Shown piece by piece: positions 7,880 to 29,804 of a stretch of DNA of 62,281 nt (position 1 is the stretch's first letter; each line of letters starts with the position of its first letter). A program made the position numbers and the translations under genes. This DNA comes from a virus (taxonomy: Duplodnaviria > Caudoviricetes), in the IMG/VR virus record IMGVR_UViG_3300044627_002262, positions 1 through 62,281 of that record, one strand, 5' to 3'. The notes under the pieces were generated by a model. It saw only the letters and a program-made list of their open reading frames with translations, was not told where the DNA came from and ran no database searches.

Positions 7880-7939
7880 TGTATTTATTTTTTCTATTTA
7901 TTGGTTTGGTTCGTCGGCAGGTTGCCTTCGATGGAGATG

Positions 7940-10153: not shown

Positions 10154-10159
10154 GTGAGT

Positions 10160-10187
10160 AGATTAGCTAACCTGCTTGGGTTTGCAA
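10160..10187 (-). promoter_or_regulatory. Sigma70-like promoter with AACCCAA box (copy 3)
   Basis: TTGCAA-16 nt-TAATCT; box AACCCAAGCAG overlaps the -35 and spacer. Confidence 0.7.
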
Positions 10188-10199
10188 GAGGAATTTTTG

Positions 10200-10373: not shown

Positions 10374-10375
10374 TT

Positions 10376-10729
10376 TTAAATAATTTGAGCAAGTGACCAA
10401 TAGAATCTGGCATCGCATTCAAGTTGATCTGCCTTTCCAATGCGGAGAGCAACAAGGGAATTGTGATTCCACGCTTTTGTTCCAAGTCCTTTTTCTTGAC
10501 GAATGGTTGCGGCAGAAGCATCAAGTTTTTTCGACCTTTGAATCAATTGCTCTTTTGTTGCCGCATCACTTTTCCATGATTTCAAGATTTCTTTAGCCTT
10601 GGATAAATCCCAAATCACTTGTGGGAAAAGATTGGATTTGTATTCGCGGAGTTCAGCAAACCCAGCGTCATTGTGGATACGAAGAACTGTTTTGGTTTTT
10701 TTGTTGATGTAGGTTTCTGTTGTTTTCAT
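10376..10729 (-). CDS. Hypothetical early protein
   Basis: Start reassigned to MKTTETY, after an A-rich leader downstream of promoter copy 4. Confidence 0.6.
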   Translation of the reverse strand: MKTTETYINKKTKTVLRIHNDAGFAELREYKSNLFPQVIWDLSKAKEILKSWKSDAATKEQLIQRSKKLDASAATIRQEKGLGTKAWNHNSLVALRIGKADQLECDARFYWSLAQII

Positions 10730-10784
10730 TTTTGGATTTTTAATTTGTTTTTCGTCGTCGGCGTTGTGCCTCCGATCTGCGAAC

Positions 10785-10812
10785 ACATTACCAAACCCGC
10801 TTGGGTTATCAA
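10785..10812 (-). promoter_or_regulatory. Sigma70-like promoter with AACCCAA box (copy 4)
   Basis: TTGATA-16 nt-TAATGT; perfect AACCC-N4-GGGTT inverted repeat overlaps the spacer. Confidence 0.7.
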
Positions 10813-10914
10813 GAAATATTTTTATCCGTTGTGTCATAGTAAAAACATTTTTGCTTGACGCTTGATCAAAAACCCAAGCAGTCCGTAGACCCGCATGAAT
10901 ACTCGCTCTGCGGG

Positions 10915-10988
10915 TGGTTGCAGGACAAGGAGTCGAACCTTGAACTTCAGGTTATGGGCCTGACGAGATACCTTTTCTCTATCCTGCG
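10915..10988 (-). tRNA. tRNA-Met(CAT), initiator (fMet) type
   Basis: Cloverleaf CGCAGGA/TCCTGCA, GAGA/TCTC, TCAGG-CCCATAA-CCTGA, CAAGG-TTCGACT-CCTTG, encoded ACCA; C1:A72 mismatch and A11-U24 pair. Confidence 0.92.
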
Positions 10989-10992
10989 GAAA

Positions 10993-11148
10993 TTATTTTT
11001 TGCGAGATGCTGCGGCTTTTTTCGCCTTCGCTTTGCGTTGGATACTGTACGCAATTGCGGCAGCTTGCGCTGGCTTTTTGCCTGAACGAATTTCAGCCGC
11101 GATGTTGCGGTCAAAACAATTTTGCGAAGCGCATTTTCGAGTCGGCAT
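10993..11148 (-). CDS. Small basic protein, 51 aa (not in ORF track)
   Basis: MPTRKCASQNCFDRNIAAEIRSGKKPAQAAAIAYSIQRKAKAKKAAASRKK; starts 2 nt after the giant gene stop. Confidence 0.75.
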   Translation of the reverse strand: MPTRKCASQNCFDRNIAAEIRSGKKPAQAAAIAYSIQRKAKAKKAAASRKK

Positions 11149-11150
11149 AG

Positions 11151-20100: not shown

Positions 20101-21602
20101 TTTTCTGCCATCGTCGTGCGAGGATCAATCAGTCCACCAATTCGCTCGTACGATCTCGTCCCTGCCAGACTGCCAATGCCAAATCCTGTTCCAGCACTGA
20201 ATCCGAGGTCTTCTGCCGTCTCGATGTCTGGCAGACCCATTACGACATTCATCGCGGCAGCATTAATGCCCGGTTGAATCAACGCATTCGATTGGCGAAT
20301 CGTCCAGTCGGCTAACTTTGCTCGCGCAACTCCACCTTTTCCTTGCGCCCCAAAAAGTTTTTTTGTCAGGTCACTGGAATCTATTGCTTGCCCTGCTCGC
20401 TCAACCATTCCCCTTCTTCCTGCCGTTCCGGCAATGTCAGCTTGCTTTGTGATGTCCTTGATCACCCTTGCAGTTGCAGAAACAGGTTTTGCAACGCTAA
20501 CAACGGGTAGGATTGCAGTGTTTACAGTACCTTTGATCCAAGTGTCTGGATCATTTATTGCGTACTCGCCAATTTTTTTTGCGCCAGTCTGAAGAAGTTC
20601 AGTTCCCTGAAGGACTTTGTTTGCGGCGTATTCAGTTCCTGCCGCAAGTTTGGAAGTGCCTTGCATTGCAAAGTCTCCTGCCTTGTTCATTACTGGAGCG
20701 GTTACTTTGGAAAGAGGCTTTAAAACTGCTCCGCTCAACCTGCCTCCACCGGGGATAGCCACAGGTGAAACAAACTCTCCCAGCGCAGAAATATTCTGGT
20801 TGATCTGGTCTTTAGTAAGACCCTGATCAAGCATGGTCTGGATATAGTCTTGCTTTACTTTTTCGACTTCTTCAGGAGACAATCCCATCTTCTTTGCCTC
20901 GTACTCAACATATCCCTGAATCAGCGGATTTTGAGAAAGAAGTGCGGCAACTCGGTCTGGATTTTGTTCTGTTTCTTGAGCTTCCAACTGACGCATGGTT
21001 TGTCTGTTTTGCCATGCTCGGAAGCGTTCTTCTTCACTTTTCCCAAACAATTTGTCAGTAGTAGCACTGCCAAACATTCCAAATCTAACAGCAGCATTTA
21101 CTGTTTCTTCAATATCTTTTGCTGCACCAATTCCAAGAGACCTAATTGCCTCTTCGCGTTCTTTAAATACTTTCTTTGCCTCTTCTGAATCTAAACGACC
21201 ATAGCCTCCAGAAAGTGCAAAAGCAGCAGGCTGAACAACTGCTTTGTTTGCTAACTCAACTGCGCCTGATGCAGTTTGCCCAATGATATCTGCTGCTGCT
21301 GGAATAAATGCTCCTACTGCACCAGATGCTTTGTCCGCAAGACTGCGTTCGTCTTCTGCTTTGAACAGTTTCCGTTGGAGTTTGTCAGATAACTTAACCC
21401 CTTCAGACTGCATCTTCTTGATTTCATCGATGCTTAAATCGTCTTCTAATTTAATGCCTTCTGGAACTTCTTTAAATGACTTGGGAGGTTCTAATACAGC
21501 ACCTTCTGGTATTTCTTTAAATGACTTGGGAGGTTCAGGTTCCAACCCGATAACTTTAACTCCTTCAGGTGGTTCTTTAAACGATTGTTGCGGTTCAGCC
21601 AT
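11151..21602 (-). CDS. Giant polyvalent (probably ejected internal virion) protein with zincin, LPD23-like, ART-PolyVal-like and HhH-GPD-like modules
   Basis: 3483 aa; HEVQH..DEILAE; AFHAS..FDKF..GWGLYFAE; FHGT..VMPVFLK..YAVFNPEQIKS; FGPKIGSF..TADLW..QAALW; last large gene of the structural block. Confidence 0.85.
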   Translation of the reverse strand: MAEPQQSFKEPPEGVKVIGLEPEPPKSFKEIPEGAVLEPPKSFKEVPEGIKLEDDLSIDEIKKMQSEGVKLSDKLQRKLFKAEDERSLADKASGAVGAFIPAAADIIGQTASGAVELANKAVVQPAAFALSGGYGRLDSEEAKKVFKEREEAIRSLGIGAAKDIEETVNAAVRFGMFGSATTDKLFGKSEEERFRAWQNRQTMRQLEAQETEQNPDRVAALLSQNPLIQGYVEYEAKKMGLSPEEVEKVKQDYIQTMLDQGLTKDQINQNISALGEFVSPVAIPGGGRLSGAVLKPLSKVTAPVMNKAGDFAMQGTSKLAAGTEYAANKVLQGTELLQTGAKKIGEYAINDPDTWIKGTVNTAILPVVSVAKPVSATARVIKDITKQADIAGTAGRRGMVERAGQAIDSSDLTKKLFGAQGKGGVARAKLADWTIRQSNALIQPGINAAAMNVVMGLPDIETAEDLGFSAGTGFGIGSLAGTRSYERIGGLIDPRTTMAEKITNLVTPDPAAYRRDEDADIKRFMAQASPEIQQNIADLSNIESRKAAIETSIASLEKKRDAQINPEDAAFDQKQIDGFLKQREALSKSTPETQAEATRQTALAFIDAYDLAQSTGGVAGLRGVKIAVLDPANADQFFRDLYGDSLKQAETTINLLTGIPSLTETDSQKLTEARQLLQKFQNDVEGAKSARGFALQEDNADPNSEGFVPPHLRRINQQGATAVINADLIKHMTSQGLNLRHTLQHEVQHAVQQFAEVNKMLAPLRGQLFDQKIKNDDGSVEVYQQGIYSDEDLDRYATQYAKMMSPSDNGASFYAQFGGEVEKMRAYIKDEILAETAAATGEYAGGTRASLDDVGRNVMDWFEVKTKSGRLKQLKETLRKNGILFDNAGGYSSVLGAQMSPETLAMVRQYQRGLKDFDGTMTVQQSRESDEPDIPLTKVLGSVALQNKYRHADFFEKEQIIKATAPDGSVTEIVVPAGAKIDPFVDVYRTQGGQLVDANGNVVTLGPEITFGSMPDGTTFETDTRIARKPDGSPIILTNREMKARARKRTEIIQNAIDSAKDDGSGIRLSDTGNGNYRGVMSPAQIEAFMALPNEVVSPNLKRMTKFFNELMARNDGTRVVMEYQASLLNGRYKALSPKIRDEVPIGFQLTKDGNFALTTISISRLYDKMQAWSDKKPENLQPWNGDTGAFWDSLIKLLDNHSRGEKGETGLHPDAYIAGKMKNKINDLFNAYNAETKESNPDRSTLPRARGKDNLDIVIRSRRLDRINNFSESPSQKLPINYGYLTTNYMPAVNPMAAPMTAEEVQNRFDGSVTATRVRRAMATGEIDALESELRQMDDLLPTESLQLVQGQDQMPRIQIVSMFDPENVASLEPEEIVSDIDAETEAELAILDAQDGTVPPQDIAKVLSSKLDQLYADGGRSPIIPALETELEKIYQQLESQAQDQAAATEEIVEAPETTEVDMMNSPQDLILAAVDNYNEGRVDNATQTLPEYIRSVVNEAGALQISPDITDEQIVAAANDVMQYRQSLKDRIQSGTRFENAVVAPAGLQYLPAFHASRADFDKFNLDFINSGNKEQVYGWGLYFAENRKEIDKFVPLQYQYKVDLDIDEDKILDWNSNIDSRLRDKVDDLKKNIEIDTAFPVRIDTVGDYYDALSEYIGNPKEASMQLKAMGFDGIKFTDRITQTKQKQIGLTAEQITSVPKTYNYVIFDDSKIKILYKGDKSLGPITQFMPAVAEAPSGERGFKSKLQTEIQRKFQGATATPEQLKAVITNPQNVKQEEVKWSGVLDAIDRLAGENNGKVPVVELMDYLRNEGQVKFEEVTLGEDASVKDIADTYRIKIEDQYGEAAFYDEFDDPLEFDELPFALQNAIDNASKLPAPKYAKYQLSGGENYREVVMAMPEKNRGIAESDIEDQAKMDAGKQWESWTPQERSQAMDKVRSRFNRAGEYTSSHFPNVHNYVAHMRLNERTDAEGNDGLFIEELQSDRHQAGREKGYLEDKSFEDLTNEQQARMEYLNNEAPTPLTPDLLTELNSLRNQARQARNTTLREGIPDAPFRKDWSLQLFKRALRDAVESGKQWIGWTVGDTQAERYDLSKQIDRIEYNEDKQGGRLTGEKGREMPIIQTGITPDKLADYIGKETAQKLLAQEKDKNGWRVLENADLKVGGEGMKGFYDQILPKEIGKYVGKMGGKVEKSEIETPKGKPTDYEDFNAYNKAPESKQTPIWRVNITPEMAKVVSAGQLQFMPAVSDAEYLNFAKNPEDNQSQLQKMVDEAAKRAGYNIKGFHGTRSQSPFNVFEPNSALGGAIFVATDINEASVFGKVMPVFLKAENVRKGIVRSYDEVRAIAKAKERGQDAIRVTDGMGAPINYAVFNPEQIKSADPVTYDGEGNVIPLSQRFQTTSLDIRFMPAGEGLPLSEATAPEQQQQVEKPLSMVVLPKKPTPVERTMQADAGDFSVVIGGKPGKYGFGYTTVADLTPTLELSQDRKKYLIEVLTPRNDELNKKRDALLDIGNLYWENIDIKNKEDKSQDDIQRSEEIADLLNEFMENPDRDFTLNDAAQVAEVDRLTRSINLMNRGMVPAPFKFPVDNREVPVPVEKPADIPQDASKEDKAKYAKDLAAYEAYVALVKKQEQDVSVGLKSLQGAVATLFKTKKFKEFIAEAAGLTGIQFDNILGTWKFEAEPSFVFSAPNMTWEQSQSVTKWLSVLMTQDAGIAWKPSIGLTEGAPSVYLVHDKKLTEEQILNAFKKAKEVGIDGLSVTVDGRGIKAANFDNIDKFEDKLIEIQKASNIKNINKTLVDSFYYDTTSDFTADDGSLKVPDWIKGESINEENTQDQQGGIPKAIQQDTRLARGFPILLRRGIDSVLIPYAKSLAGEGFTFDPDRFAERYGLGQEVADYIREQLYPTSGLSRSVTPILDGTEKFTVPESYYTKGGRLKTSVNDLMYALQKRSADDGFIQPGDYSTRAGQIVAETIVDEIQGHMERAAKNPEAPNAIGWYDTALKKMKQKYSEFFPFLNRGTPTYDADKEFIFDSVLGIASQGNNVFENGKMAARVQFLLESGKTLPEIKDELYGTFGGETRAIENNLLKLDELIKNNGIQALDKLFRKKMTVSEWNGYFKKNKNLWFKGKPLTVDGQADQMVTGFSVFGPKIGSFINNLHGDYTTLTADLWFTRTWNRILGNVFQHAPLKEANQYDTFRKSILEQYRSDSANSAGEKFEPLLKRINKDGEKEFFDYMNEPELDGISRDGLDKLLADPQKMLELATALEDRYRKGQYKAKSDLRRAAKNWVENRTDPVAAPRTDLERDFQQDVMEIAQKKLRRKGIDITIADMQAALWYNEKELFGLYGAQVSGSEPADYADAADNVDEIMAYASLFKVNRLVEVDGKKRTEIVRLLTPEEEVALTGVQNAKTPEEYVALLAARKKAEDDENAAEKKLEEAELKVAKFKRELATATDEKSKQKLQASLEKAKMTLSNLTGETKK

Positions 21603-21603: not shown

Positions 21604-23379
21604 TTATTTGCTTAATTTAAATTCAGTTCCATCCCAAACATATTTATATCCATCTTTTACAAAAGAAGTAACACCTTTTTCATATTTAGGTTTTTCAGAT
21701 TGAATATTTTGAAATTTAGTTGGACTTTCAACATTCATTACTTCTTTTTTATCTGCTTCAAGACCAGAAATGAGTCTTGCTGTAGACTCTCTCATGGATT
21801 TTATGTTTTCTAAAAATGTAGCTTCATCCATGTCTGGATCAACTGATCCTTGAAGTGATGTAAGCATTTTTAATTCAGAATCCGATAATGCACCAAGAGA
21901 CCCTCCTTGATTTTTTAATGCAACCAATTCATCAAATCCAACAATTCCTTTTACTGTATCAAGTAAACTTCTTGTTGTCCTTGCGTCATTTGCAAAAAGA
22001 TTGTACTTCATAAGACCTGAAATACCTCCAGCACCAGCAAAAAGATATCCCGGTGCTATTTTTTCAATTTGTTCTAATGTCTTTTTAAGAACTTCTGCCT
22101 TTTTTATATTATTATCAAATGTTGCAATTTGTTGTTTGACAGGCATTTTAGGCTTATATACATATGTTTCCTTGCCATCAGCATCTCTTATTGATTCAGT
22201 AAAATATCCTTCTGGAGCAGTTTTTGCTGGAGGTGCTTCTTCAGAAACTTCAACTTCTACATAGTACAATTTGCTGCCTTTATCTCCTTTTACAGCATCA
22301 ATTTTTGCTTTAACTCCAAGTTTTTGTTGAAGAATTTTCTTTGCCATATTAGCTTCCGCTGGGCTTTTATATGGTCTTGCAGTCAATTGGTTTTCAATTT
22401 GGAATTTGTATTCAGCTTCACTTAATTGAACTGGTTGTGTAGGTTCAGGAGTTGCTGCAAGCGCAGGTTCTGCCTGTGGAAGCGCAGGCTCAACTGGAGG
22501 AGTTCCAGCAAGAGGTTTTTCTTCTGCTCCAGACACTGGCACAAGTTGACTTGTTTCACCAGAAAGCGTGATTTGTCCTACAGTCTCTGGAAGTGTGCCT
22601 TGTTGTCGAGGTGGTTGCAACCCTTCCAAACTATATCCTGCGATTTCTTGCACTGGCACAGGAGTAACTGCGCTAATGTCAGAAAATAAATTAGGTTCAG
22701 CAGGTGATGCTGCAACACTGCGATTTTTAAAAGCATCACGATAAGCAACAAAATTAGGATTTTCGCTTTGCCCAAAAATAGACTTTTGCGAAACGCCAGC
22801 AGGCGCAGCAGGAGCAGTTGTTGGAGTAGCAGGAGCGGCAGGCGCAGTTGTTGGAGTAGCGGGTGAAGTTGCTGGGACTTCTTCTATTTTTGTTTTAAAA
22901 TCTGGTAAATTTGAAAATTGACTAAAATCCATTTCAAAAGGTTCCAGTGGCGCATTTTCATCTACTTCAACAGCACTTTCATTTTTTGTTTTTGCTGCCG
23001 CAATTTGCTGCGTTAACAAATCACTTCTCTGCTGCTGATAAGCAGTTTCTGCTGCTGTTGGCGCGGCTTTAATTTTAGCAATCTCCATTGCTCGATCATG
23101 CTCTAATTTTGAATCTGCCGTTGCCTTTGCCTCTTGCGCCTTCGATGTCAATGCGCCAGTAACTCCACTCAATGCGGAGGTAACGCCTTTAACAATGCCT
23201 TCAGTCAGTGCCTGCCTGCCCTTCCAGAATCCCTCGGTAACAATCTCTGGATTTTGCTTTAGAAATTCCATAGGAGTGTTTGCGGCAAATCGCAAACCCT
23301 CCCCTCGACTTTGAATGGGATTGATACTTGCCAAGGCAGTCGATGCCTTGGGCGCATAAGAGAATGAAAAGGCAGTCAT
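21604..23379 (-). CDS. Putative ejection / internal virion protein
   Basis: 591 aa; Pro/Ala/Thr linker, GGSLGALSDSELKML, C-terminal DGYKYVWDG; directly upstream of the giant protein. Confidence 0.65.
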   Translation of the reverse strand: MTAFSFSYAPKASTALASINPIQSRGEGLRFAANTPMEFLKQNPEIVTEGFWKGRQALTEGIVKGVTSALSGVTGALTSKAQEAKATADSKLEHDRAMEIAKIKAAPTAAETAYQQQRSDLLTQQIAAAKTKNESAVEVDENAPLEPFEMDFSQFSNLPDFKTKIEEVPATSPATPTTAPAAPATPTTAPAAPAGVSQKSIFGQSENPNFVAYRDAFKNRSVAASPAEPNLFSDISAVTPVPVQEIAGYSLEGLQPPRQQGTLPETVGQITLSGETSQLVPVSGAEEKPLAGTPPVEPALPQAEPALAATPEPTQPVQLSEAEYKFQIENQLTARPYKSPAEANMAKKILQQKLGVKAKIDAVKGDKGSKLYYVEVEVSEEAPPAKTAPEGYFTESIRDADGKETYVYKPKMPVKQQIATFDNNIKKAEVLKKTLEQIEKIAPGYLFAGAGGISGLMKYNLFANDARTTRSLLDTVKGIVGFDELVALKNQGGSLGALSDSELKMLTSLQGSVDPDMDEATFLENIKSMRESTARLISGLEADKKEVMNVESPTKFQNIQSEKPKYEKGVTSFVKDGYKYVWDGTEFKLSK

Positions 23380-23387: not shown

Positions 23388-23924
23388 TTAAGTTCCTCCG
23401 AATTGTAAACCTTGCGTGTTAGGCATCGTATAGCGGTTCTGCACGGCATTTGTGCCGCCAGAGTCCTGATTTAGTTTTTGAGCGATAGCAGCACCTGATG
23501 GAGCAATAGGAGCAGGCATTCCTGCACTTCCCATTGATGCCGCCTGCTGTTGCTTGGCAGCAGCAGGGTTAAATCCACTGGCTTGTGGTCGAGAATAATT
23601 CATCTGCCCACTTTGGATTGGCGTATTCAGTGTGGATTGCAATTTGTTGCTAACATCTTGCTGATTTTGCGTAGCGAGACTACGAGCATTAGCAGATTGA
23701 GTTGAAATGGCTTGCTGCCTTGCTGCCTCTTCTGCCGCTTTCCTTGCTGCTTCCTCTGCCGCTCGCTGCGCGGCAAGAGCGTCCGCTTGCTGTTTTGCGA
23801 ATGCCTGCGCCTGTGCGTCCTGTTGGCGTTGCATTTCTCGCATTTGGGCAGAATTGTCTGGAGCGGGAGTGCTTCCACCACCACCACCACCACTGCGACC
23901 TTTAGATTTTCCTTGTCCTCCCAT
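23388..23924 (-). CDS. Gln/Ala-rich MGG...FGGT protein (paralog C)
   Basis: Starts MGGQG, ends YTMPNTQGLQFGGT. Confidence 0.8.
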   Translation of the reverse strand: MGGQGKSKGRSGGGGGGSTPAPDNSAQMREMQRQQDAQAQAFAKQQADALAAQRAAEEAARKAAEEAARQQAISTQSANARSLATQNQQDVSNKLQSTLNTPIQSGQMNYSRPQASGFNPAAAKQQQAASMGSAGMPAPIAPSGAAIAQKLNQDSGGTNAVQNRYTMPNTQGLQFGGT

Positions 23925-23926
23925 AA

Positions 23927-24499
23927 TTATGATCCTCCAAATGTTAAACCAGTTGTATTTGGAACCAAATACTGATTTTTCTTTTGTTCACCTGTTTGTT
24001 TATTTACAGACGCAGCAGTTGTTGCTGCTGGATTAAGCCCGTAAATATTTGAAAGTGTATTACTTTGTGTTTGCGGCAATGTGCCAGATGCAGCACCAAG
24101 TTGAGTAAGCGCATTTTGCTTGGATTTAGCAAAATCATAGTCGCCAGTCATTGCTTCAGCACCAGTCGTAATGCTTTTATTATATGCTTTTGCGGCATTT
24201 TGATCAGCAAGTTCTTGCATTGTATTTTGACCAGTCAATTTTTGCTGCACATCTGACAAATTTTGCTGTGCTGCCTGCTGCGCCATTTGCGATTGCGACT
24301 GGATTGCTGCTTCCTGTGCTGCCTTTTCTGCTGCAACTCTCTGCCTGTCTGCTGCATCAATTTGAGCTTGCAACATAGATTGTTGCATAGCCATTTGTTG
24401 CTGGTTCATTTGCTGGTTCATTTGCATCATAGCAAGTTCTTGATTTTGCTGTGCTTGAACCTGTGCCTTGCTTGGCCCTTGTTGTCTTCCTCCACCCAT
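23927..24499 (-). CDS. Gln/Ala-rich MGG...FGGS protein (paralog B)
   Basis: Starts MGGGR, ends YLVPNTTGLTFGGS. Confidence 0.8.
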   Translation of the reverse strand: MGGGRQQGPSKAQVQAQQNQELAMMQMNQQMNQQQMAMQQSMLQAQIDAADRQRVAAEKAAQEAAIQSQSQMAQQAAQQNLSDVQQKLTGQNTMQELADQNAAKAYNKSITTGAEAMTGDYDFAKSKQNALTQLGAASGTLPQTQSNTLSNIYGLNPAATTAASVNKQTGEQKKNQYLVPNTTGLTFGGS

Positions 24500-24532
24500 A
24501 ATTAATATCCTTTCATTTTGTTTTATTTTTAA

Positions 24533-25018
24533 TTATTTTCCACCAAAAGTCAAACCACTTAAATTAGGCGACGAAAAGTTAGTTTGAACAGGAGGGTTGC
24601 TCTGTGCCATCATCGAATTAATATTAGCCTGTTGAGCAGCATTTGCTGATGCCAATGCATCTGTTTTTTGATTTAAAAATGCTTGATTCCCTTGTTGTTG
24701 CTGTGCAAGAAAATTATTCATCATACCAGAATTATTTGGTGCTTGGAATTGAGGCACATTAACTTTTGGCAATGAAGTGTATTTGGGAGGTGCGCTTTTA
24801 GCCAATCCAGAATCCATTGCCCAGTCGCGGATTTTCCCTCGGATTGCCCTTTGAATAGGGTCTCCAGAAAGCTCAATGGCTCGACCAAATCCACGCTTCT
24901 CTTCACCCATTAAATAAATTGGAGATTTGAATCCTGCTTTACCAGCAACTTTATGAACCTGATAAATCGGGTCAATTGCCTTAAATGTTTTTGTAAATGT
25001 TTTTCCTACTCCACCCAT
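24533..25018 (-). CDS. MGG...FGGK protein (paralog A)
   Basis: Start reassigned to MGGVGK (AAGGAG upstream); ends FSSPNLSGLTFGGK. Confidence 0.75.
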   Translation of the reverse strand: MGGVGKTFTKTFKAIDPIYQVHKVAGKAGFKSPIYLMGEEKRGFGRAIELSGDPIQRAIRGKIRDWAMDSGLAKSAPPKYTSLPKVNVPQFQAPNNSGMMNNFLAQQQQGNQAFLNQKTDALASANAAQQANINSMMAQSNPPVQTNFSSPNLSGLTFGGK

Positions 25019-25290
25019 AAATTCTCCTTTCTCCTCGCTTCTTTGCAAAGTTCTGAACCAACAACAAAATTAGCACATGATTTAGGTCGATTCGGATAGA
25101 CCATGCAACAAACAGTCTCGCCAACTTTTCCTTCCAAAGCGATGCATCTGTTGTTGTTTGTTTTCATTAGCGGGTAATCCTCTCGCTGCATTTCCACAGG
25201 GATGCCTGTTGCGTCTGAACGATCTCTTCGGAGAATCGGCCATGACCATTTAAAACAACAACACGCGCCACAGGTTTGACAGTCATACAT
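25006..25290 (-). CDS. YkgJ-family cysteine-cluster (Zn/Fe-S) protein
   Basis: CQTCGACC..RCIAL..CMVYPNRPKSC..C; start reassigned to MYDCQ. Confidence 0.85.
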   Translation of the reverse strand: MYDCQTCGACCCFKWSWPILRRDRSDATGIPVEMQREDYPLMKTNNNRCIALEGKVGETVCCMVYPNRPKSCANFVVGSELCKEARRKENLWVE

Positions 25291-26131
25291 TTTTCTTTTT
25301 AGTCCAATCCACGGGTCGGAATCCAAGATCGTTAATAACTATGTCCTCGTAAGGCGCAAGGTGCGAAACATTGGTTATTTTCGCCTTTAGTTTCGGGCAG
25401 TCTACATACTTGCCTTGGTGACGATCCACGCAATTGAAACAAACTGGGTAGAAGTCAGCATTAAGCGACTTATCAGAATTGTTTCCCCATCCTTTTTCGG
25501 TTTTGATGTAGCGTGTCTCGTCAGGTTCAATGCCAGAGTACTCAAGGTAGTCGTAAACATCTTTGTCAGTCCAGTCTCGGAGCAGGTATAGGCTAACTGG
25601 CGACCCGTCTGCATGACGAATGTGAGTAGTTACTGCTACCTCGCCTTTGATCAAGTCTGTGTCAGTGTTTTTTGTGCCAATGTAGACCGCATTCCACGGC
25701 CAATTAAATGTCCCTGTAGGACGCAATAGAAAGTCGTTAACGCCACACAGGAAGTCCTCGCCTTCTTTTGGTCGTTCTGTTCCCAACGACATGACCATAC
25801 ACTTTTCACCCCATTGAAAGTATTTGAGCATATCGAACCGCACCTTGCCAGTCTCGGTGTCAGGCCCATCAGTCAATGCTACTCGCATCGGTGGATACTC
25901 ATAGATTGCAAGTTTCCATTTTTTGATCAGTCGGTCTGAATAAGCGTAGCGTTCACGGAATTTAGGTTCGCGGAATTGAACGACAGGCAGTTCAATTCCT
26001 GCGCGGAATTTGAGTATATGAAGCAATGCCGTGGAGTCTTTGCCTCCAGACCAAAATACAACGCTCTTCGGCCAATTTGTAGCCCAGAGTCGCGCCATTT
26101 CAACTGTCTTATTCAGGAGTTCAATATTCAT
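25283..26131 (-). CDS. PAPS-reductase-family PP-loop protein
   Basis: WSGGKDS PP-loop, YIGTK..D, LRDWTDKDVYDYL, C-terminal CFNC..C. Confidence 0.85.
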   Translation of the reverse strand: MNIELLNKTVEMARLWATNWPKSVVFWSGGKDSTALLHILKFRAGIELPVVQFREPKFRERYAYSDRLIKKWKLAIYEYPPMRVALTDGPDTETGKVRFDMLKYFQWGEKCMVMSLGTERPKEGEDFLCGVNDFLLRPTGTFNWPWNAVYIGTKNTDTDLIKGEVAVTTHIRHADGSPVSLYLLRDWTDKDVYDYLEYSGIEPDETRYIKTEKGWGNNSDKSLNADFYPVCFNCVDRHQGKYVDCPKLKAKITNVSHLAPYEDIVINDLGFRPVDWTKKKNV

Positions 26132-26134
26132 CTA

Positions 26135-27007
26135 TTAAATCATAATTGCTGCTGCTGCGGCGATTCCCAGTGCTGCTCCACCTCCCGCAATGAGTTGCCC
26201 AGTCTGTGCCTGCTGCCCAGCAGATGCGGCAGCATTGGCGGCATTTTCCGAATTCGCATTTCCAAGGAGATTGTTAATCAGTTGTCCTTGGTATTGACGC
26301 AGGTTTGCCTGCTCTGCTTGATTTGCCGATAGGGTCTCTCCCATCATTTTGTTTACAAAATCGGCATACGATTGACCCATTCCAAAAACATTTTGGAGAT
26401 TCTGCTGTTGGAACGCATTCATGGTTCCAGTATTCGCGTCTCTTGTGGCTTGCTGTGCCGCTACTGCCGCGCCGGGATCAATACCTCCCATTGGAGCAGG
26501 AGTCGCTTGTAAAAATGCCTGCCGCTTCGCAATGTTGTCGAACATCATATTCCTGCCTGCTTCAGCAGTCTTGTCGAAGATGGCAGACCTGCCAATCGTG
26601 CTGGATGGATCAATCCCAGTTGATGCAACGGAAGTGATTCCACGCTCGCGAGCGAATCTGCTTAAAAAATCTTCCAAATTATTTGGATCAGTTGCTTCTG
26701 CAACTTGTTGGCTCAATCCCATTCGCATTTCAGCCGCAAATGGATCGGTTAGTTGTTCACCTTCCCGCGATCTTTGGATGTTGCCAAGTCCAAATTCATA
26801 TGCTTGCTGCGAAACCTCTGTAGGGTTGTATTCCAGCATCCTTGGAGGCATTTTTGATGCCAGCGAAATATTGTCGCGCTTCAAATCCAGTGCGCTTTCT
26901 CCTAACTTCATCGACGCACCCAAAATATCGTAAGTTGGTTGCGGATTTGGAGGAGGAATCATCCTCGATGTATTTAATGTTGTTGGTGCTGGTGCGCTTC
27001 CTCCCAT
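26135..27007 (-). CDS. Putative ejection/pilot protein (MGG start, hydrophobic C-terminus)
   Basis: MGGSAPAP; Gln/Ala-rich; ends LIAGGGAALGIAAAAAIMI; GGAG upstream. Confidence 0.7.
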   Translation of the reverse strand: MGGSAPAPTTLNTSRMIPPPNPQPTYDILGASMKLGESALDLKRDNISLASKMPPRMLEYNPTEVSQQAYEFGLGNIQRSREGEQLTDPFAAEMRMGLSQQVAEATDPNNLEDFLSRFARERGITSVASTGIDPSSTIGRSAIFDKTAEAGRNMMFDNIAKRQAFLQATPAPMGGIDPGAAVAAQQATRDANTGTMNAFQQQNLQNVFGMGQSYADFVNKMMGETLSANQAEQANLRQYQGQLINNLLGNANSENAANAAASAGQQAQTGQLIAGGGAALGIAAAAAIMI

Positions 27008-27017
27008 AGTAATCTCC

Positions 27018-27398
27018 TTAAAGGCTAAAAAGTTCTCGATGCATTCGTTTTAAACCAAGTTTTGACATGATTTCGTTTGTAAAATTAGTGCGTTCACTCT
27101 GGAGTGGAACTCCGATATACCCTGCTGCCCCAGACACTTGTGCATACACTTTGAGATCGTGCATACATTGAACTACATCTCTCGGAGTAGTGTGTTTTGG
27201 ATGGAAAGCAGGGTAAAGAACTGGAATGTAAACATGATCGGAATATCCGAATAGTTTTCCATCCTTATAATGCCCAATTACATTCACTTGTGGATGCTCA
27301 ACAACATGGTGATCGAATTCCTCGGCAAAATCAACAAGTTCAAGAAATTCCCCACTGTCTTTTGGAATCGTTTTATATTCTATATTACTAATTTTCAT
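27018..27398 (-). CDS. GNAT-like protein (position of T7 gp13 / P22 gp14)
   Basis: 126 aa; KDGKLFGY and MSKLGLKR; lies between tail and ejection-type genes. Confidence 0.5.
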   Translation of the reverse strand: MKISNIEYKTIPKDSGEFLELVDFAEEFDHHVVEHPQVNVIGHYKDGKLFGYSDHVYIPVLYPAFHPKHTTPRDVVQCMHDLKVYAQVSGAAGYIGVPLQSERTNFTNEIMSKLGLKRMHRELFSL

Positions 27399-27656: not shown

Positions 27657-29804
27657 TTATTCAGGAGGTTGGCAAGGATTCTCCGCTCGATATTGCTGTG
27701 CAGCAGCATTTGCTGCCTGAAGTGCCAATGTACTCGCCTCTGCCTCTGCGTGTTCGTAGCTAATGTAAGATAGGAATGATGCCTCTGCTGTTGCTGCAAT
27801 AGCAGGGGAAGGAGAACCTAATGGACAAATTAATGTCACTGTTTTGTAAACACTGGCATACCACGATCTCTGTTGCCCGTTCGTCGTATCATATGCGTTC
27901 GGTAGAGTGTCAATTGTAATGTTGTTCCCATCCTGACCAACCACGCAGTATTTTTTTTCGTCTCGTTGAGGTACGCCAAGTGATTTTGTCGAGTATGGAT
28001 CGATGTAAATTCGCACGATCTCAACCCCCATTTGACCGCACCATTCTATCAGTATGCTGAATGCTTTATCGATGTCGATTGTGAGGTCACTTTCGCAGGT
28101 GGTGTAGTCGATGGTTCTTTGGGATGATTCGGTAATCAACCTGCGATACTGCGAATTCAAAAATCCCAGTTCCTCGATCTTATCTTGGTACGGAGTGCCT
28201 TTCCACTGCACATCATCGGTAACAGCAAGAAGGCGTTTTTTGAGAACCTGCTTGTGCTTACCCTTGCTCCCTCGGAATGCAACTGTGACATCTACAACGC
28301 CACCGATTTCGCAAGCCTCGATTTCAGAGTAGATGAACTGCTTCAAATCCATTGCATCACCCAGCATCGCAGTCTCCATCTGGCAGTAAATGCGATTGAT
28401 TTTAGGAGTCGTCGTGCCGTCCGAATTTGTGTCGAAGTACGAATCGTACTTTTGAGGTGCAAAAGATTCCCAGATGTGGTTGTAAGACCCATCACTGGTT
28501 GCTGCGTAGTCAACACTAAAATGAAAGCACCTTTGCTGTCCTCCCACAGTGCCTGTAGTCCACTCAACAGGTCGAGTTCCTGTCCATACACCACACCAAG
28601 CAGGAATGCGTTGCTGCGACCATTCTGACGCAGCAGCATAGTCAAGAACCATCGTCTGCGAGTTCAGCTTTTCGAGATACGGAACACTGACCAAAATGTA
28701 GTTTTCAAATGAAGTGCAGCAGATGCCTTTTGTATTGCCTGACAAATACTGCTTCGTCCTCGCCATCTCGACATCTTTGTAGATAATCTGCGACGACAGA
28801 TACGATGCTGCCGCCACATCCGCAGCAATCAACCCACCCTGCGAGTACCACCACATTTGACCTGCCTGAAAAGTGATTGACTTGCCTGCGATACATCCAA
28901 CAGTCGGGAAAAGCGTGTTCTGGAAATTGGCAGTCGATGTCCACTGGGAACGATCAAGAATTCCAGAGGCGAGAGAGAAGGTTGCTCTATCAGTAAACAC
29001 AATCAATCGGGTTGATGTATCCTGACCGACATAGCTAACCATTCCAGTAACTGTCCTCGAAAAGGCAAAGTCTCCGCGACCAGCACCACTCTTGCGTTCT
29101 TGCCATGAGGTCGGGTCTCCGAGATCGCTTGCCAACACAATATTTTTATCAGCAATCCAAAGTCTGTTTCCAGAAAACGCCATCCAGTATCCAGTCGGGA
29201 TCGATGCGGTTTGCGTACCAGTCTTGTTCGACCCATCCCAGTATGCTGGAGCAGAAACGCCATCTTGGATGAAGACTGCTCGATGCGATGGAGTCACAAT
29301 CTCATCTTTACCCGTCGAAAGATTCGCAGATTGCGTAGCGAGGCAGAAGACAAACTGATCGACATCTGGATCGAGTGAGATGTTTGACAATTTGTACTCC
29401 GACCAATCTTTGGGTTGAGTCAAAGGGAATGGAGCGAAATAAACCGATCCTGAAACAGCAAAGACCATGTAGGGTATTTCTTCGGCAATAACCCCCTCGC
29501 CTTCGACATTAAAAATTTTTGCAGGAGTCGTAATCGTGCGACCATTGATGACTTCAATTTTTGCAGACTCTTTTTGCTTATTCGCAGCAAAGAAAATTCC
29601 ACCCTGAAAGTTTCCAGCAGGCAATGAGAGGCGCATTGCTTGGCCGGGACGAGTCTGCACGATGCCGCCTCGCACTTGGACATTGACCCCCCATTTGAAT
29701 TGATTTTCAGGAAGTGACCACGGATTGCGGACAGAATTTACGCCAGCAAACCACCCAGAGGTTGCCTTGACCAATCTGCCAGATGATATCTGCTCGCTTT
29801 TCAT
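27657..29804 (-). CDS. Tail tubular B / nozzle-like protein (P22 gp10 / T7 gp12 type)
   Basis: 715 aa; N-terminus FAGVNS..LPENQ..GVNV..GIVQTRPG; beta-rich; synteny. Confidence 0.65.
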   Translation of the reverse strand: MKSEQISSGRLVKATSGWFAGVNSVRNPWSLPENQFKWGVNVQVRGGIVQTRPGQAMRLSLPAGNFQGGIFFAANKQKESAKIEVINGRTITTPAKIFNVEGEGVIAEEIPYMVFAVSGSVYFAPFPLTQPKDWSEYKLSNISLDPDVDQFVFCLATQSANLSTGKDEIVTPSHRAVFIQDGVSAPAYWDGSNKTGTQTASIPTGYWMAFSGNRLWIADKNIVLASDLGDPTSWQERKSGAGRGDFAFSRTVTGMVSYVGQDTSTRLIVFTDRATFSLASGILDRSQWTSTANFQNTLFPTVGCIAGKSITFQAGQMWWYSQGGLIAADVAAASYLSSQIIYKDVEMARTKQYLSGNTKGICCTSFENYILVSVPYLEKLNSQTMVLDYAAASEWSQQRIPAWCGVWTGTRPVEWTTGTVGGQQRCFHFSVDYAATSDGSYNHIWESFAPQKYDSYFDTNSDGTTTPKINRIYCQMETAMLGDAMDLKQFIYSEIEACEIGGVVDVTVAFRGSKGKHKQVLKKRLLAVTDDVQWKGTPYQDKIEELGFLNSQYRRLITESSQRTIDYTTCESDLTIDIDKAFSILIEWCGQMGVEIVRIYIDPYSTKSLGVPQRDEKKYCVVGQDGNNITIDTLPNAYDTTNGQQRSWYASVYKTVTLICPLGSPSPAIAATAEASFLSYISYEHAEAEASTLALQAANAAAQQYRAENPCQPPE

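What the first reader, a model, noticed from the sequence alone, without database searches (positions are those of the whole stretch)
23388..27398. Candidate virion-protein ligation/modification system: PP-loop ATPase and Fe-S protein among proteins with N-terminal GG and C-terminal FGG-x tags
Seen: three tandem genes end in a shared 14-aa motif right at the stop: FSSPNLSGLTFGGK, YLVPNTTGLTFGGS and YTMPNTQGLQFGGT (consensus [FY]xxPNxxGLxFGG[KST]). The rest of these low-complexity proteins is far more divergent. All three, plus the 290-aa protein at 26135-27007, start MGG. Wedged among them and overlapping or abutting them are a PAPS-reductase-fold PP-loop protein (SGGKDS) and a YkgJ cysteine-cluster protein; a GNAT-like gene precedes the block. 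Established: PP-loop enzymes adenylate substrates to form amide or thio linkages. C-terminal diglycine, often unmasked by clipping, is the activated end of ubiquitin/ThiS/MoaD-type proteins. N-terminal oligoglycine is the nucleophile in sortase-type ligation. Inference: these enzymes process, chain, cyclise or chemically tag the ejection proteins, or the motif is a capsid-sorting signal. The proteins have no ubiquitin fold, so this would be a distinct system.
Basis: partly seen in the sequence, partly recalled or inferred. Interest (0 to 1): 0.9.

Follow-up and report, generated by a model that had tools for sequence, protein, structure and literature searches.

The report
Phage ejection-protein operon with tail-modifying enzymes
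The shared FGG endings are real, but they occur with or without the two enzyme genes, and the ATP-using enzyme instead follows the glycine/alanine-rich tail of the virion protein encoded just upstream, which it probably modifies.

Summary
Three tandem genes end in PNxxGLxFGGx (3 matches, 0 expected). Four genes start MGG. A PAPS-reductase-fold PP-loop gene, a CxxCxxCC gene and a GNAT-fold gene sit among them.

In this uncultured ~60-kb phage family, FGG-tailed proteins are present in 10 of 10 loci that lack the enzymes and in 31 of 31 that have the PP-loop gene. Distant phages with the same PP-loop family have no FGG endings (0 of 373 ORFs).

The PP-loop gene tracks something else: the protein encoded just upstream (26135-27007), which ends in a bare Gly/Ala-rich hydrophobic tail.
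- In this family, 30 of 31 PP-loop loci have that tail, against 0 of 10 enzyme-less loci.
- In distant lineages, 29 of 38 upstream proteins have it, against 4 of 179 other ORFs.
- Cultured phage Bcep22 has the same pairing (gp70-gp73).

In some relatives the same slot holds YcaO-TfuA, a backbone-thioamidation pair.

Best reading: an optional, ATP-dependent enzyme that modifies that tail. The FGG and MGG ends are family-wide features of the ejection proteins, of unknown role. This scan has noted the tail-enzyme pairing before on other DNA. All of this is computational; no modification has been shown.

The parts
27657..29804 (-). 715-aa conserved virion-module protein. I used it as the anchor for finding relatives.
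   Evidence: 291 relatives in viral contigs. 56-78% identical in G001-G005. Weak match to phrog_511 'internal virion protein' and to Bcep22 gp67 'internal virion protein' (E 0.001).
27018..27398 (-). 126-aa GNAT-fold protein. It sits in every family locus whose architecture I listed, just upstream of the run of MGG-start genes.
   Evidence: AF2 pLDDT 85.6. The top Foldseek matches are all GNAT acetyltransferases: 5jq4 at E 4e-4 and TMq 0.62, then GCN5, Naa50 and PanZ. No Pfam, NCBIfam or PADLOC match. 22 invariant columns among 30 homologues.
26135..27007 (-). 290-aa MGG-start, Gln/Ala/Asn-rich ejection-type protein that ends in a bare Gly/Ala-rich hydrophobic tail (...GGGAALGIAAAAAIMI, then the stop). 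It is the proposed substrate of the PP-loop enzyme.
   Evidence: Sequence. It is the only one of 72 window ORFs with such a tail. Tail type follows PP-loop presence. The stop lies 3 nt before the PP-loop ATG. Weak similarity to Bcep22 gp70 (E 0.002). One Atlas neighbour at score 0.93 is a P22 gp7 'DNA transfer protein' cluster; this is a lead only.
25283..26131 (-). 282-aa PP-loop ATP pyrophosphatase of the PAPS-reductase / CysD / FAD-synthase branch, with four invariant cysteines.
   Evidence: PF01507 at 22.3 bits. Invariant in 54 homologues: S28, G30, D32, S33, C129, D157, C231, C234, C245. AF2 pLDDT 95.8. VIA-align: CysD Z 15.7, FAD synthase 15.3, APS reductase 14.6, LarE-[4Fe-4S] 11.2, NcsA 11.1.
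25006..25326 (-). CxxCxxCC (YkgJ-type) cysteine-cluster protein. The probable start is the ATG at 25290, which gives 94 aa.
   Evidence: PF03692 at E 1.1e-7. Relatives are 93-103 aa. Present in 30 of 35 PP-loop loci and in 0 of 12 loci without the PP-loop gene.
24533..25018 (-). Small ejection-type protein M1: MGG start, ends FSSPNLSGLTFGGK.
   Evidence: It clusters apart from M2 and M3 (family 6).
23927..24499 (-). Small ejection-type protein M2: MGG start, ends YLVPNTTGLTFGGS.
   Evidence: 62 homologue clusters, all metagenomic, with no Pfam family; one source name ('FKBP-type peptidyl-prolyl cis-trans isomerase (trigger factor)' on one cluster), the rest 'hypothetical protein' or unnamed.
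23388..23924 (-). Small ejection-type protein M3: MGG start, ends YTMPNTQGLQFGGT.
   Evidence: Same cluster as M2 (family 0).
21604..23379 (-). 591-aa virion or ejection protein.
   Evidence: phrog_2534 'released from the phage upon host infection' at E 3.6e-8. It holds the position of Bcep22 gp74.
11151..21602 (-). 3483-aa giant multidomain protein that closes the operon.
   Evidence: ORF. It holds the position of the Bcep22 gp75 'DarB-like antirestriction' giant.

Best explanation
The region is the ejection (internal-virion) protein operon of an uncultured ~62-kb phage. Its layout matches the late cassette of Bcep22-like podoviruses: GNAT-fold gene, virion protein with a Gly/Ala-rich tail, 'PAPS reductase', virion protein, giant protein.

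(1) The FGG and MGG ends. The three small proteins, and the 290-aa protein for the MGG start, carry family-wide terminal peptides: an MGG start and a [FY]x(aliphatic)P[NSD]xx[GN](aliphatic)xFGGx end. These are kept at the protein level whether or not the enzymes are present. I infer, without a test, that the C-terminal peptide is a docking or assembly signal for packaging into the capsid or for building the ejection conduit.

(2) The PP-loop enzyme. It is an optional accessory gene, tightly coupled to the upstream 290-aa protein. It acts on that protein's bare Gly/Ala-rich hydrophobic C-terminal tail. The inferred mechanism is that it uses ATP to adenylate either the terminal carboxylate or a backbone carbonyl of the tail. 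A sulfur atom (or nitrogen) is then inserted, helped by its own four-cysteine metal or Fe-S site and, in this family, by the CxxCxxCC protein.

Relatives carry YcaO-TfuA, a known backbone-thioamidation pair, in exactly this slot. Thio-modification (thioamide or thiocarboxylate) is therefore the most likely chemistry.

Shown here: gene order, co-variation of enzyme and tail, folds and invariant residues. Inferred: the substrate, the chemistry and the role of the tails.
For: Slot census:
- Directly after the 290-aa-type gene, 47 distinct complete loci hold the PP-loop gene (35, of which 30 also have CxxCxxCC), YcaO+TfuA (2) or nothing (10). The search looked only for these four genes; the ORF listings show a few further unassigned ORFs in some slots but no other recognised enzyme.
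- The G002 pair matches PF02624 at E 5.5e-55 and PF07812 at E 3.1e-33. Its best NCBIfam models are the McrA-glycine thioamidation YcaO and TfuA.

Tail tracking:
- Of 45 distinct rows, 30 of 31 PP-loop phages have a bare hydrophobic Gly/Ala tail and 0 of 10 enzyme-less phages do. Each trait changes at least 4 times on the anchor-protein tree (tails listed).
- Near-identical phages L112 and L096 differ by one replacement. It covers the last ~20 codons of the tail together with the PP-loop gene.
- In 38 distinct loci from distant lineages with this PP-loop family, 29 upstream proteins meet a strict tail criterion, against 4 of 179 other ORFs (Fisher p 6e-24). By eye, 7 more carry the same kind of tail. 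The gene gap is mostly -1 or -4 nt.
- A third lineage has tail protein, SET domain, PP-loop. SET+PP-loop fusions exist.
- Bcep22 gp70 ends ...GLGTIAGAGIMAF and is followed by gp73 'PAPS reductase'.
- In phage JC1, the homologue of the tail protein (gp64) is in the virion. The two enzymes are not in the paper's virion table (PMC9144972, passages and Table 6).

The enzyme:
- SGGKDS, D157 and four Cys are invariant in 54 homologues.
- The fold is that of CysD, FAD synthase and APS reductase.

Precedent: CtaC, an Fe-S member of the same superfamily, is a peptide thioamide synthetase (PMC6772006, abstract).

Independence of FGG from the enzymes. Protein-level constraint on GG.
Against: - No modification has been observed. 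Everything rests on gene neighbourhood and co-variation.
- The phylogenetically independent test has only 4 pairs (3 the same way). Its sign test gives p 0.25 and cannot reach significance. The Fisher test ignores relatedness.
- Enzyme and tail end could travel together simply because they are adjacent, as the L112/L096 replacement would also show.
- The nearest structures are CysD, FAD synthase and APS reductase (Z 12-16). The sulfur-inserting LarE, NcsA and TtuA score lower (Z 9.6-11.2) and YcfA scores 7.6. The thio-chemistry is therefore argued from the YcaO-TfuA swap, not from the fold.
- Most YcaO-type relatives (9 of 11 distinct tails) have the Gly/Ala segment inside the protein, followed by a conserved extension, not at the very end. 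The two enzyme systems need not do the same thing.
- Ten family members do without any enzyme.
- The role I give the FGG tail has no direct support.
Confidence: 0.5

Rival explanations
1. First reader's model. The PP-loop and Fe-S proteins recognise the C-terminal FGG-x and/or N-terminal GG ends of the small proteins. They adenylate the C-terminus and ligate, chain, cyclise or tag these proteins.
For: The genes are interleaved and overlapping. PP-loop enzymes adenylate substrates (established knowledge). In many relatives a small MGG protein lies between the PP-loop and CxxCxxCC genes.
Against: FGG-tailed proteins are present in 10 of 10 enzyme-less family loci. Loci from distant PP-loop phages have 0 FGG ends among 373 ORFs. 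G001-G003 lack both enzymes. The residues after GG vary from 0 to 2, and some ends are FGS or FGK. No E1-like, ubiquitin-like or sortase family was found in the window.
Confidence: 0.07
2. Published reading for the cultured analogues. The 'PAPS reductase' and the acetyltransferase are moron or auxiliary metabolic genes. The reductase feeds host sulfate assimilation and has nothing to do with virion proteins.
For: [quoted passage not shown] The fold is closest to CysD, FAD synthase and APS/PAPS reductases. phrog_424 is filed under auxiliary metabolic genes.
Against: The protein keeps an ATP-type SGGKDS loop like CysD and FAD synthase. By direct reading, its C-terminus lacks the ECGLH catalytic motif of CysH (motif recalled, not from a call). 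No other sulfate-assimilation or sulfur-carrier family was found in the window. The gene is start/stop-coupled to a tail-bearing virion gene across many lineages. It is replaced by YcaO-TfuA, which is not a sulfate-assimilation system.
Confidence: 0.1
3. The position after the 290-aa gene is merely a permissive insertion point. The enzymes act on something else, such as phage DNA (DndC-like phosphorothioation), tRNA thiolation or a host protein. The tail correlation comes from linkage and shared ancestry.
For: The independent-pairs test is not significant (4 pairs, p 0.25). In L112 versus L096 the tail end and the gene are swapped as one block, as linkage alone would give. Superfamily members thiolate tRNA (TtuA, NcsA). 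DndC belongs to the PAPS-reductase family (recalled).
Against: Only two kinds of enzyme cargo were recognised in 47 distinct slots, and both are ATP-dependent carbonyl-activating systems. The same pairing recurs in lineages whose flanking proteins share no detectable similarity. DndC scores only 13.5 bits, over the PP-loop alone. YcaO-TfuA is known only to act on peptides and proteins (PMC5589413 and the PMC8120280 abstract). SET-domain fusions point to protein substrates.
Confidence: 0.15
4. The terminal Gly-Gly of the FGG motif is partly an RNA-level signal. GGAGG in the last codons serves as the ribosome-binding site of the next, closely packed gene.
For: GGAGG is present at 64 of 97 distinct FGG ends. 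The first Gly codon is GGA in 61 of 97, against 41.5% GGA among all Gly codons of these genes. In the window, GGAGGA ends 8 nt before the ATG of 23924 and 14 nt before the ATG of 23379.
Against: 33 of 97 ends lack GGAGG (for example GGCGGG 16 times) yet still encode Gly-Gly. The conserved peptide extends 14 residues upstream. This can explain only a codon bias, not the motif.
Confidence: 0.1

Closest known systems
Late cassette of Bcep22-like phages (Lessievirus): Bcep22 gp69 acyl-CoA N-acyltransferase, gp70 virion protein, gp73 'phosphoadenosine phosphosulfate reductase', gp74 virion protein, gp75 DarB-like giant. JC1 gp63-gp69 are the equivalents.
   Same: Same order of gene types. gp70 ends in a Gly/Ala-rich hydrophobic tail directly before the PP-loop gene. 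The flanking proteins are in the virion by mass spectrometry, and the two enzymes are not listed (PMC9144972 Table 6).
   Different: Sequence similarity is marginal. The PP-loop proteins align only over the PP-loop itself (E 0.001). The GNAT-fold proteins show no similarity. The tail proteins align at E 0.002. Bcep22 and JC1 have no CxxCxxCC gene in the annotated cassette, no MGG start on gp70 and no FGG-tailed small proteins. Published interpretation: moron genes for sulfate reduction.
YcaO-TfuA backbone thioamidation: thioglycine 465 of methyl-coenzyme M reductase McrA, and thioamidated RiPPs.
   Same: In relatives (G002, L128, L142-144 and a ~40-kb phage group), an intact YcaO+TfuA pair occupies the very slot that the PP-loop gene holds here. 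The best NCBIfam models are the McrA-glycine thioamidation pair. ATP-dependent activation of a backbone carbonyl is the chemistry I propose for the slot.
   Different: The window itself has no YcaO or TfuA. The phage pair scores below the equivalog cut-offs (174.7 against 365 bits; 133.5 against 235.2). The McrA site lies within LGFFGFDL as printed in PMC5589413, not in an Ala/Gly-rich tail.
CtaC, the Fe-S cluster-containing adenine nucleotide alpha-hydrolase that thioamidates the closthioamide backbone (PMC6772006).
   Same: PP-loop superfamily enzyme with an Fe-S cluster that converts peptide amides to thioamides (abstract). It is the precedent for a PP-loop enzyme doing what YcaO-TfuA does.
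   Different: CtaC works on carrier-protein-bound (thiotemplated) small peptides. I made no sequence or structure comparison with CtaC. The window protein belongs to the PAPS-reductase / CysD branch.
CysD (ATP sulfurylase small subunit), the FAD synthase PAPS domain, and assimilatory APS/PAPS reductases.
   Same: Nearest solved folds: 1zun Z 15.7, 8rom 15.3, 4bwv 14.6, 2goy 12.8. The best PDB sequence hit is CysD, E 2.9e-4. The PP-loop motif resembles that of CysD and FAD synthase. It has a CxxC plus further conserved Cys, as in Fe-S APS reductases (Fe-S ligand pattern recalled).
   Different: Only 10-21% identity. It has an extra beta-sheet insert at about residues 83-119. Its C-terminal region carries CxxC...C-P-K instead of the CysH ECGLH motif (read; motif recalled). 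Its genomic context is virion genes, not sulfur assimilation.
Ubiquitin-like sulfur carriers and their activators (ThiS/MoaD with ThiF/MoeB; TtuB with TtuA).
   Same: A PP-loop Fe-S enzyme (TtuA) takes in the C-terminal Gly-Gly tail of a small protein (PDB 5gha title). C-terminal activation by adenylation remains a candidate chemistry, but for the upstream protein's tail.
   Different: M1-M3 are low-complexity proteins and carry 0-2 residues after GG. No ThiS/MoaD or ThiF family was found in the window. TtuA is a weaker structural match (Z 9.6) than CysD. The FGG proteins are independent of the enzyme.

Membership tests
PP-loop ATP pyrophosphatases (adenine nucleotide alpha-hydrolase superfamily) | SGGxDS PP-loop at the N-terminus of a Rossmann-like fold | tested here: met
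   SGGKDS is present. S28, G30, D32 and S33 are invariant in 54 homologues. The model has pLDDT 95.8. All top structural matches belong to this superfamily.
PAPS_reduct (PF01507): CysH / CysD / FAD synthase branch | Pfam model at or above the gathering score | tested here: inconclusive
   The window protein scores 22.3 bits against a cut-off of 22.5, over residues 24-84 only. Most relatives carry a precomputed PF01507 hit. G004 and G005 pass when fragments are summed.
Assimilatory PAPS/APS reductase (CysH) | C-terminal catalytic cysteine in an ECGLH-type motif (motif recalled from memory) | tested here: not met
   By direct reading of the translation, the C-terminal 50 residues hold CFNC...C-P-K and no ECGLH. 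NCBIfam gives only weak CysD matches, far below cut-off.
Fe-S dependent sulfur-inserting PP-loop enzymes (TtuA / NcsA / LarE-[4Fe-4S] / CtaC type) | Three or more conserved cysteines placed to bind a [4Fe-4S] cluster at the active site | tested here: inconclusive
   Four invariant Cys (C129, C231, C234, C245). I did not measure their geometry in the model, and no metal can be shown. LarE-[4Fe-4S] Z 11.2, NcsA 11.1 and TtuA 9.6 rank below CysD at 15.7.
CxxCxxCC / YkgJ (PF03692) | Pfam model above the gathering score | tested here: met
   E 1.1e-7, 32.9 bits against 23, residues 15-87. Also over the cut-off in G004 and G005.
GNAT acyltransferases | GNAT fold | tested here: met
   All of the roughly 30 rows shown (ranks 1-50) among Foldseek PDB matches are GNAT enzymes. 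The best is 5jq4, E 4e-4, TMq 0.62, on a model with pLDDT 85.6.
GNAT acyltransferases | Acyl-CoA pyrophosphate-binding motif Q/RxxGxG/A between strand 4 and helix 3 (motif recalled) | tested here: inconclusive
   No Pfam or NCBIfam GNAT model matches. The loop at residues 66-72 reads HPKHTTP, with invariant H66, P67, T70 and P72. A QVSGAAG stretch lies at the end of helix 72-89 instead.
YcaO-TfuA thioamidation pair | Adjacent YcaO (PF02624) and TfuA (PF07812) genes | tested here: not met
   No such family appeared among the window ORFs scanned with Pfam (10, 57). The pair is present in relatives at the same slot: G002 at E 5.5e-55 and 3.1e-33, plus 14 further distinct loci.
Ubiquitin-like / ThiS-MoaD carrier system | Beta-grasp protein ending in GG, together with an E1-like (ThiF/MoeB) activator | tested here: not met
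   No ThiS, MoaD or ThiF family was found in the window. M1-M3 have no Pfam or PHROG match and carry a residue after GG. I did not predict their folds.
Sortase-type ligation | A sortase gene plus a sorting signal, with an oligoglycine nucleophile | tested here: not met
   No sortase family was found among the window ORFs scanned. MGG starts exist, but no sorting signal or enzyme does.
Bcep22-like late (ejection-protein) cassette | Gene order: GNAT, Gly/Ala-tailed virion protein, PAPS-reductase-like gene, virion protein, giant multidomain protein | tested here: met
   Layout of NC_005262 gp69-gp75 and the gp70 tail, compared with window 27398 down to 11151. Pairwise similarity is only marginal, so homology of the whole cassette is not shown.

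The most novel reading that the evidence does not exclude
A phage ejection protein has its Gly/Ala-rich C-terminal tail chemically rewritten before packaging. The change would be oxygen to sulfur in the backbone, or a thiocarboxylate or amide cap at the terminal carboxylate. The agent is a dedicated PP-loop enzyme with a four-cysteine (possibly Fe-S) site. Phages can swap this enzyme for YcaO-TfuA at the same locus. That would be the first post-translational backbone or terminal thio-modification of a viral structural protein. It would also be a new protein-modifying branch of the 'PAPS reductase' family, which is annotated in cultured Bcep22-like phages as a metabolic moron. The GNAT-fold protein upstream may in parallel acylate the Gly exposed at the MGG starts after Met removal.
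Probability: 0.3. Interest if true: 0.85.

Novelty: new variant of a known kind. Interest (0 to 1): 0.6.

Why it matters
If the reading holds, a gene routinely annotated as 'PAPS reductase' and treated as a sulfur-metabolism moron (PMC9144972) is instead a maturation enzyme for a DNA-ejection protein. Phages would then use two unrelated ATP-dependent systems, PP-loop/Cys-cluster and YcaO-TfuA, for the same job.

That would add a new kind of virion-protein chemistry. It would also give the YcaO-TfuA and PP-loop families a protein substrate that can be tested by co-expressing two or three genes. It might explain how hydrophobic tails of ejection proteins are prepared for membrane insertion.

The FGG/MGG terminal peptides mark a large uncultured phage family: 291 relatives of the anchor protein in IMG/VR, none in 50,697 GenBank phage records and none in 185,579 species genomes. 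They are a handle for studying how small ejection proteins are sorted.

My paper searches found nothing on a phage YcaO-TfuA or on protein modification by these phage PAPS-reductase-like genes. 'YcaO + TfuA + phage' found 2 papers and 'YcaO + thioamidation + bacteriophage' found 3 (2 listed); the listed titles and abstract openings do not concern a phage-encoded pair, and I did not open them. Of the 3 papers found by 'Bcep22 + PAPS reductase' I read passages of one (PMC9144972).

Tried and rejected
- GenBank phage records. DNA (blastn) and protein (tblastn) searches of 50,697 records with the region, the PP-loop protein, the 715-aa anchor and the G002 YcaO all found nothing.
- Bacterial and archaeal genomes. 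A genome-contig scan with the anchor alignment found no relative among 84 pattern matches. The host stays unknown.
- PHROGs gave nothing for M1-M3, the 290-aa protein, the 126-aa protein or CxxCxxCC.
- PADLOC gave only a 13.5-bit DndC match over the PP-loop.
- Complex prediction. PP-loop protein with ATP, a 4Fe-4S cluster and the last 70 residues of the 290-aa protein returned 'no answer' (scores 0.47, 0.02, 0.01 against a mark of 0.32). It counts neither for nor against binding.
- A candidate 'cassette' substrate. I tested whether the small MGG family lying between the PP-loop and CxxCxxCC genes in relatives (the F3/U179 family) is specific to enzyme-bearing phages. It is found in 36 of 50 enzyme-bearing slots. 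It is missing from the window's own clade. Its motif occurs inside the large downstream protein of two enzyme-less phages. hhalign finds no relation to M1. Not decisive, so I dropped it.
- An apparent fusion of the 290-aa-type protein with YcaO, seen as ORFs of 779-977 aa, turned out to be a long upstream protein in another frame, not a fusion.
- Small proteins two genes upstream of distant PP-loop genes: 0 of 10 have a Pfam match. I could not test whether they are GNAT-like.
- P0130 as a single query found no viral relatives.
- Protein Atlas gave only unnamed viral clusters. One P22 gp7 cluster scored 0.93 for the 290-aa protein. For M2 the nearest named clusters scored below 0.8. These are leads only.
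- Tree test of tail against enzyme: 4 independent pairs, p 0.25.
- My ORF-calling script can drop short overlapping genes. It missed the CxxCxxCC gene of G004, which one search had found. The census therefore rests on tblastn.
- Row L155 is a split-ORF artefact.

Full report
WHAT THE WINDOW IS
The window is an entire IMG/VR virus record of 62,281 bp, rated 98% complete. Almost all genes lie on the minus strand.

Reading from high to low coordinates, the finding sits in a late operon:
- a 1499-aa protein and a 715-aa protein;
- a 126-aa protein (27018-27398);
- a 290-aa protein (26135-27007);
- the PP-loop gene (25283-26131) and the CxxCxxCC gene (25006-25326);
- three small proteins, M1 to M3;
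- a 591-aa protein that matches phrog_2534, 'released from the phage upon host infection';
- a 3483-aa giant protein.

No GenBank phage record resembles the region, its PP-loop protein or its 715-aa protein. No bacterial or archaeal species genome holds a relative of the 715-aa protein. IMG/VR holds 291 relatives of that protein.

THE OBSERVATION
- The three C-termini are exactly as quoted.
- The back-translated pattern with its stop codon occurs 3 times, against 0 in 100 shuffles.
- Three genes start MGG outright. The fourth (M1) does so from an ATG at 25018 with a good ribosome-binding site.
- The CxxCxxCC assignment is above Pfam's cut-off. The PAPS_reduct assignment is 0.2 bits below it, but SGGKDS is present.
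- The 126-aa protein has no family match, but its model folds as a GNAT.

THE MOTIF IS FAMILY-WIDE AND INDEPENDENT OF THE ENZYMES
A scan of IMG/VR with the motif pattern returned 25 stretches. Some are chance hits in unrelated ORFs. The rest are small Gln/Ala-rich proteins in phages of about 60 kb.

Five near-complete relatives, G001-G005, share the gene order. G001, G002 and G003 have FGG-tailed genes but neither a PP-loop nor a CxxCxxCC gene. This holds by protein search and by Pfam family search.

I then surveyed the best 80 of the 291 relatives and 32 loci related to G002. A tblastn census gave 47 distinct loci with a complete slot:
- 35 have the PP-loop gene, and 30 of these also have CxxCxxCC;
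- 2 have YcaO+TfuA;
- 10 have nothing.

FGG-type ends are present in 31 of 31 PP-loop loci and in 10 of 10 enzyme-less loci. Among 38 loci from distant phages with the same PP-loop family, 0 of 373 ORFs end that way.

The ending itself varies: 0 to 2 residues follow GG, and some ends are FGS or FGK. The Gly-Gly codons vary synonymously, so the constraint is on the protein. They also show a bias to GGAGG (64 of 97 ends), which may double as the next gene's ribosome-binding site.

WHAT THE ENZYME TRACKS
The slot always lies directly after the 290-aa-type gene. In G002 it holds YcaO (PF02624, E 5.5e-55) and TfuA (PF07812, E 3.1e-33). Their best NCBIfam models are the pair that makes thioglycine in McrA, although the scores fall below the equivalog cut-offs.

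Searching IMG/VR with that YcaO gave 23 loci. These include a separate phage group of about 40 kb. There the pair again follows a homologue of the 290-aa-type protein, and there are no FGG ends at all.

Earlier notes of this scan said that such enzymes follow a tail-bearing virion gene. That prompted me to tabulate the C-termini of the upstream protein. The results:
- On 45 distinct rows, 30 of 31 PP-loop phages end in a bare Gly/Ala-rich hydrophobic tail. The exception is a split-ORF artefact.
- 0 of 10 enzyme-less phages end that way. There the Gly/Ala segment is followed by polar or charged residues.
- Both traits change at least 4 times on the tree of the 715-aa protein.
- Only 4 independent pairs exist. 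Three go the same way, and the sign test gives p 0.25.
- L112 and L096 are 96% identical over the first 770 nt of the gene. They then differ by one replacement that spans the last ~20 codons plus the whole PP-loop gene.

The rule holds far outside this family.
- Among 56 loci found with an alignment of distant PP-loop homologues (23-48% identity), there are 38 distinct upstream proteins. Of these, 29 meet a strict tail criterion, against 4 of 179 other ORFs of at least 100 aa (Fisher p 6e-24, not corrected for relatedness).
- Seven of the 9 failures have the same kind of tail with one polar residue. One failure has a SET-domain gene inserted between tail gene and enzyme.
- The gap between the two genes is mostly -1 or -4 nt.
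- In the window, the 290-aa protein is the only one of 72 ORFs with such a tail.

THE ENZYMES
PP-loop family:
- It has 290 clusters at E <= 0.001 among 1.84 billion representatives.
- In 54 aligned members, SGGKDS, D157 and four cysteines (C129, C231, C234, C245) are invariant.
- The model is confident (pLDDT 95.8).
- It is closest to CysD, the FAD-synthase PAPS domain and APS/PAPS reductases (Z 12-16). Sulfur-inserting LarE-[4Fe-4S], NcsA and TtuA come lower, at Z 9.6-11.2.
- It lacks the C-terminal catalytic motif of CysH (read; motif recalled).
- Family members occur fused to SET domains, to TPR plus glycosyltransferase-9-like regions, and with an intein.
- A SET gene precedes the tail protein in one YcaO group. 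In another lineage a SET gene sits between tail gene and PP-loop gene.

CxxCxxCC gene: it accompanies the PP-loop gene in 30 of 35 loci and never occurs without it.

Rest of the window: no ThiS/MoaD, ThiF, desulfurase, rhodanese or sulfate-assimilation family was found among the ORFs scanned with Pfam (10, 57).

THE KNOWN ANALOGUE
Bcep22 (NC_005262) has this order: gp69 acyl-CoA N-acyltransferase, gp70 virion structural protein, gp73 phosphoadenosine phosphosulfate reductase, gp74 virion protein, gp75 DarB-like giant. gp70 ends in a Gly/Ala-rich hydrophobic tail. Pairwise similarity to the window's proteins is marginal.

The JC1 paper (PMC9144972; abstract, passages of sections 2.5, 3.7, 3.8 and 3.11, and tables) calls the acetyltransferase and the PAPS reductase moron genes. 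It suggests sulfate reduction as the role. Its virion table lists gp64, gp67, gp68 and gp69, but not gp63 or gp65. JC1 and Bcep22 have no FGG-tailed proteins.

HOW IT MOST LIKELY WORKS
Shown:
- The enzyme gene is optional.
- It is start/stop-coupled to a gene whose product ends in a bare hydrophobic Gly/Ala tail.
- It co-varies with that tail.
- It can be replaced by YcaO-TfuA.

Inferred:
- The enzyme binds the tail and uses ATP to adenylate either the terminal carboxylate or a backbone carbonyl.
- A sulfur atom (or nitrogen) is then inserted, with the four-Cys site and the CxxCxxCC protein as the metal or sulfur-handling parts.
- Because the tail must be terminal in PP-loop phages but not in most YcaO phages (9 of 11 have an extension), terminal-carboxylate chemistry is a real alternative to backbone thioamidation.

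Precedents: CtaC, an Fe-S member of the superfamily, thioamidates a peptide backbone (PMC6772006, abstract). YcaO-TfuA is required for thioglycine in McrA (PMC5589413, passages).

The FGG tails and MGG heads are left without a demonstrated role. I favour a docking or sorting peptide for the FGG tail. For the MGG start I favour acylation of the exposed N-terminal Gly by the GNAT-fold protein. Both the MGG starts and that protein are family-wide, so no co-variation test was possible inside the family.

LIMITS
- All loci are metagenomic.
- Gene calls are my own scripts.
- The census is biased towards close relatives: the best 80 of 291.
- The association statistics are inflated by relatedness.
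- The one complex prediction gave no answer.
- Supplementary files of papers could not be read.

Noticed in passing
L048 (G002) 9998-12138; also L128, L142-L144 and L129-L148: Intact YcaO+TfuA gene pairs inside phage virion operons. In 14 of 14 distinct complete YcaO-selected loci they lie downstream of a homologue of the 290-aa protein; L134 and L135, which have no such homologue, carry the pair among small genes. tblastn with this YcaO found none in 50,697 GenBank phage records.
   Followed up: partly
L131 5043-5450; L183-L188 around 7001-7405; proteins P0155 and P0193: SET-domain (protein lysine methyltransferase type) genes sit next to, or are fused with, the tail-protein/enzyme pair in other phage lineages.
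   Followed up: partly
L048 12129-13142; L129 3962-5026; L133 6910-8010; L139 6934-8004: In most YcaO-bearing phages the Gly/Ala segment of the upstream protein is followed by a conserved extension of about 70 residues. It begins CW[IV]ARA.FG and contains W..FR and YC..G. Function unknown.
   Followed up: no
window 23388-23396 and 23927-23935; 97 FGG ends in relatives: The Gly-Gly codons of the FGG tail are GGAGG in 64 of 97 distinct ends. They lie 8-14 nt before the next start codon, so they may double as its Shine-Dalgarno site.
   Followed up: yes
L096 about 7030-7880; L062: In two enzyme-less phages nearly identical to PP-loop phages, the upstream protein ends ...AMYFGGR or ...AMYFGGGKFK. 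This is an FGG-like ending in place of the bare hydrophobic tail.
   Followed up: partly
L068 5001-5519; L142 10140-10523; L160 6417-6800; L174 15347-17446: A small MGG-start protein family carries a W.[VI][QE]S.HPE..QG core. It lies between the PP-loop and CxxCxxCC genes, or after TfuA. In two enzyme-less phages the same core sits inside the large downstream protein.
   Followed up: partly
L131 8001-9143; L132, L145, L146, L148: The YcaO reading frame is intact (381 residues without a stop). My ORF caller found no ATG, GTG or TTG start for it, so the true start codon is unresolved.
   Followed up: no
proteins P0208, P0239, P0242, P0229: Members of the PP-loop family also occur with an intein/LAGLIDADG insert, fused to TPR plus a glycosyltransferase-9-like region, and fused to a Peptidase_S74 tail-fibre chaperone domain.
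   Followed up: no
window 11151-21602: The 3483-aa giant protein occupies the position of the 'DarB-like antirestriction' giant gp75 of Bcep22. It is the subject of other notes on this window.
   Followed up: no
window 55338-56459: A glycosyltransferase with a very strong PHROG match (phrog_3408, E 2.8e-187) lies just upstream of the large terminase gene.
   Followed up: no
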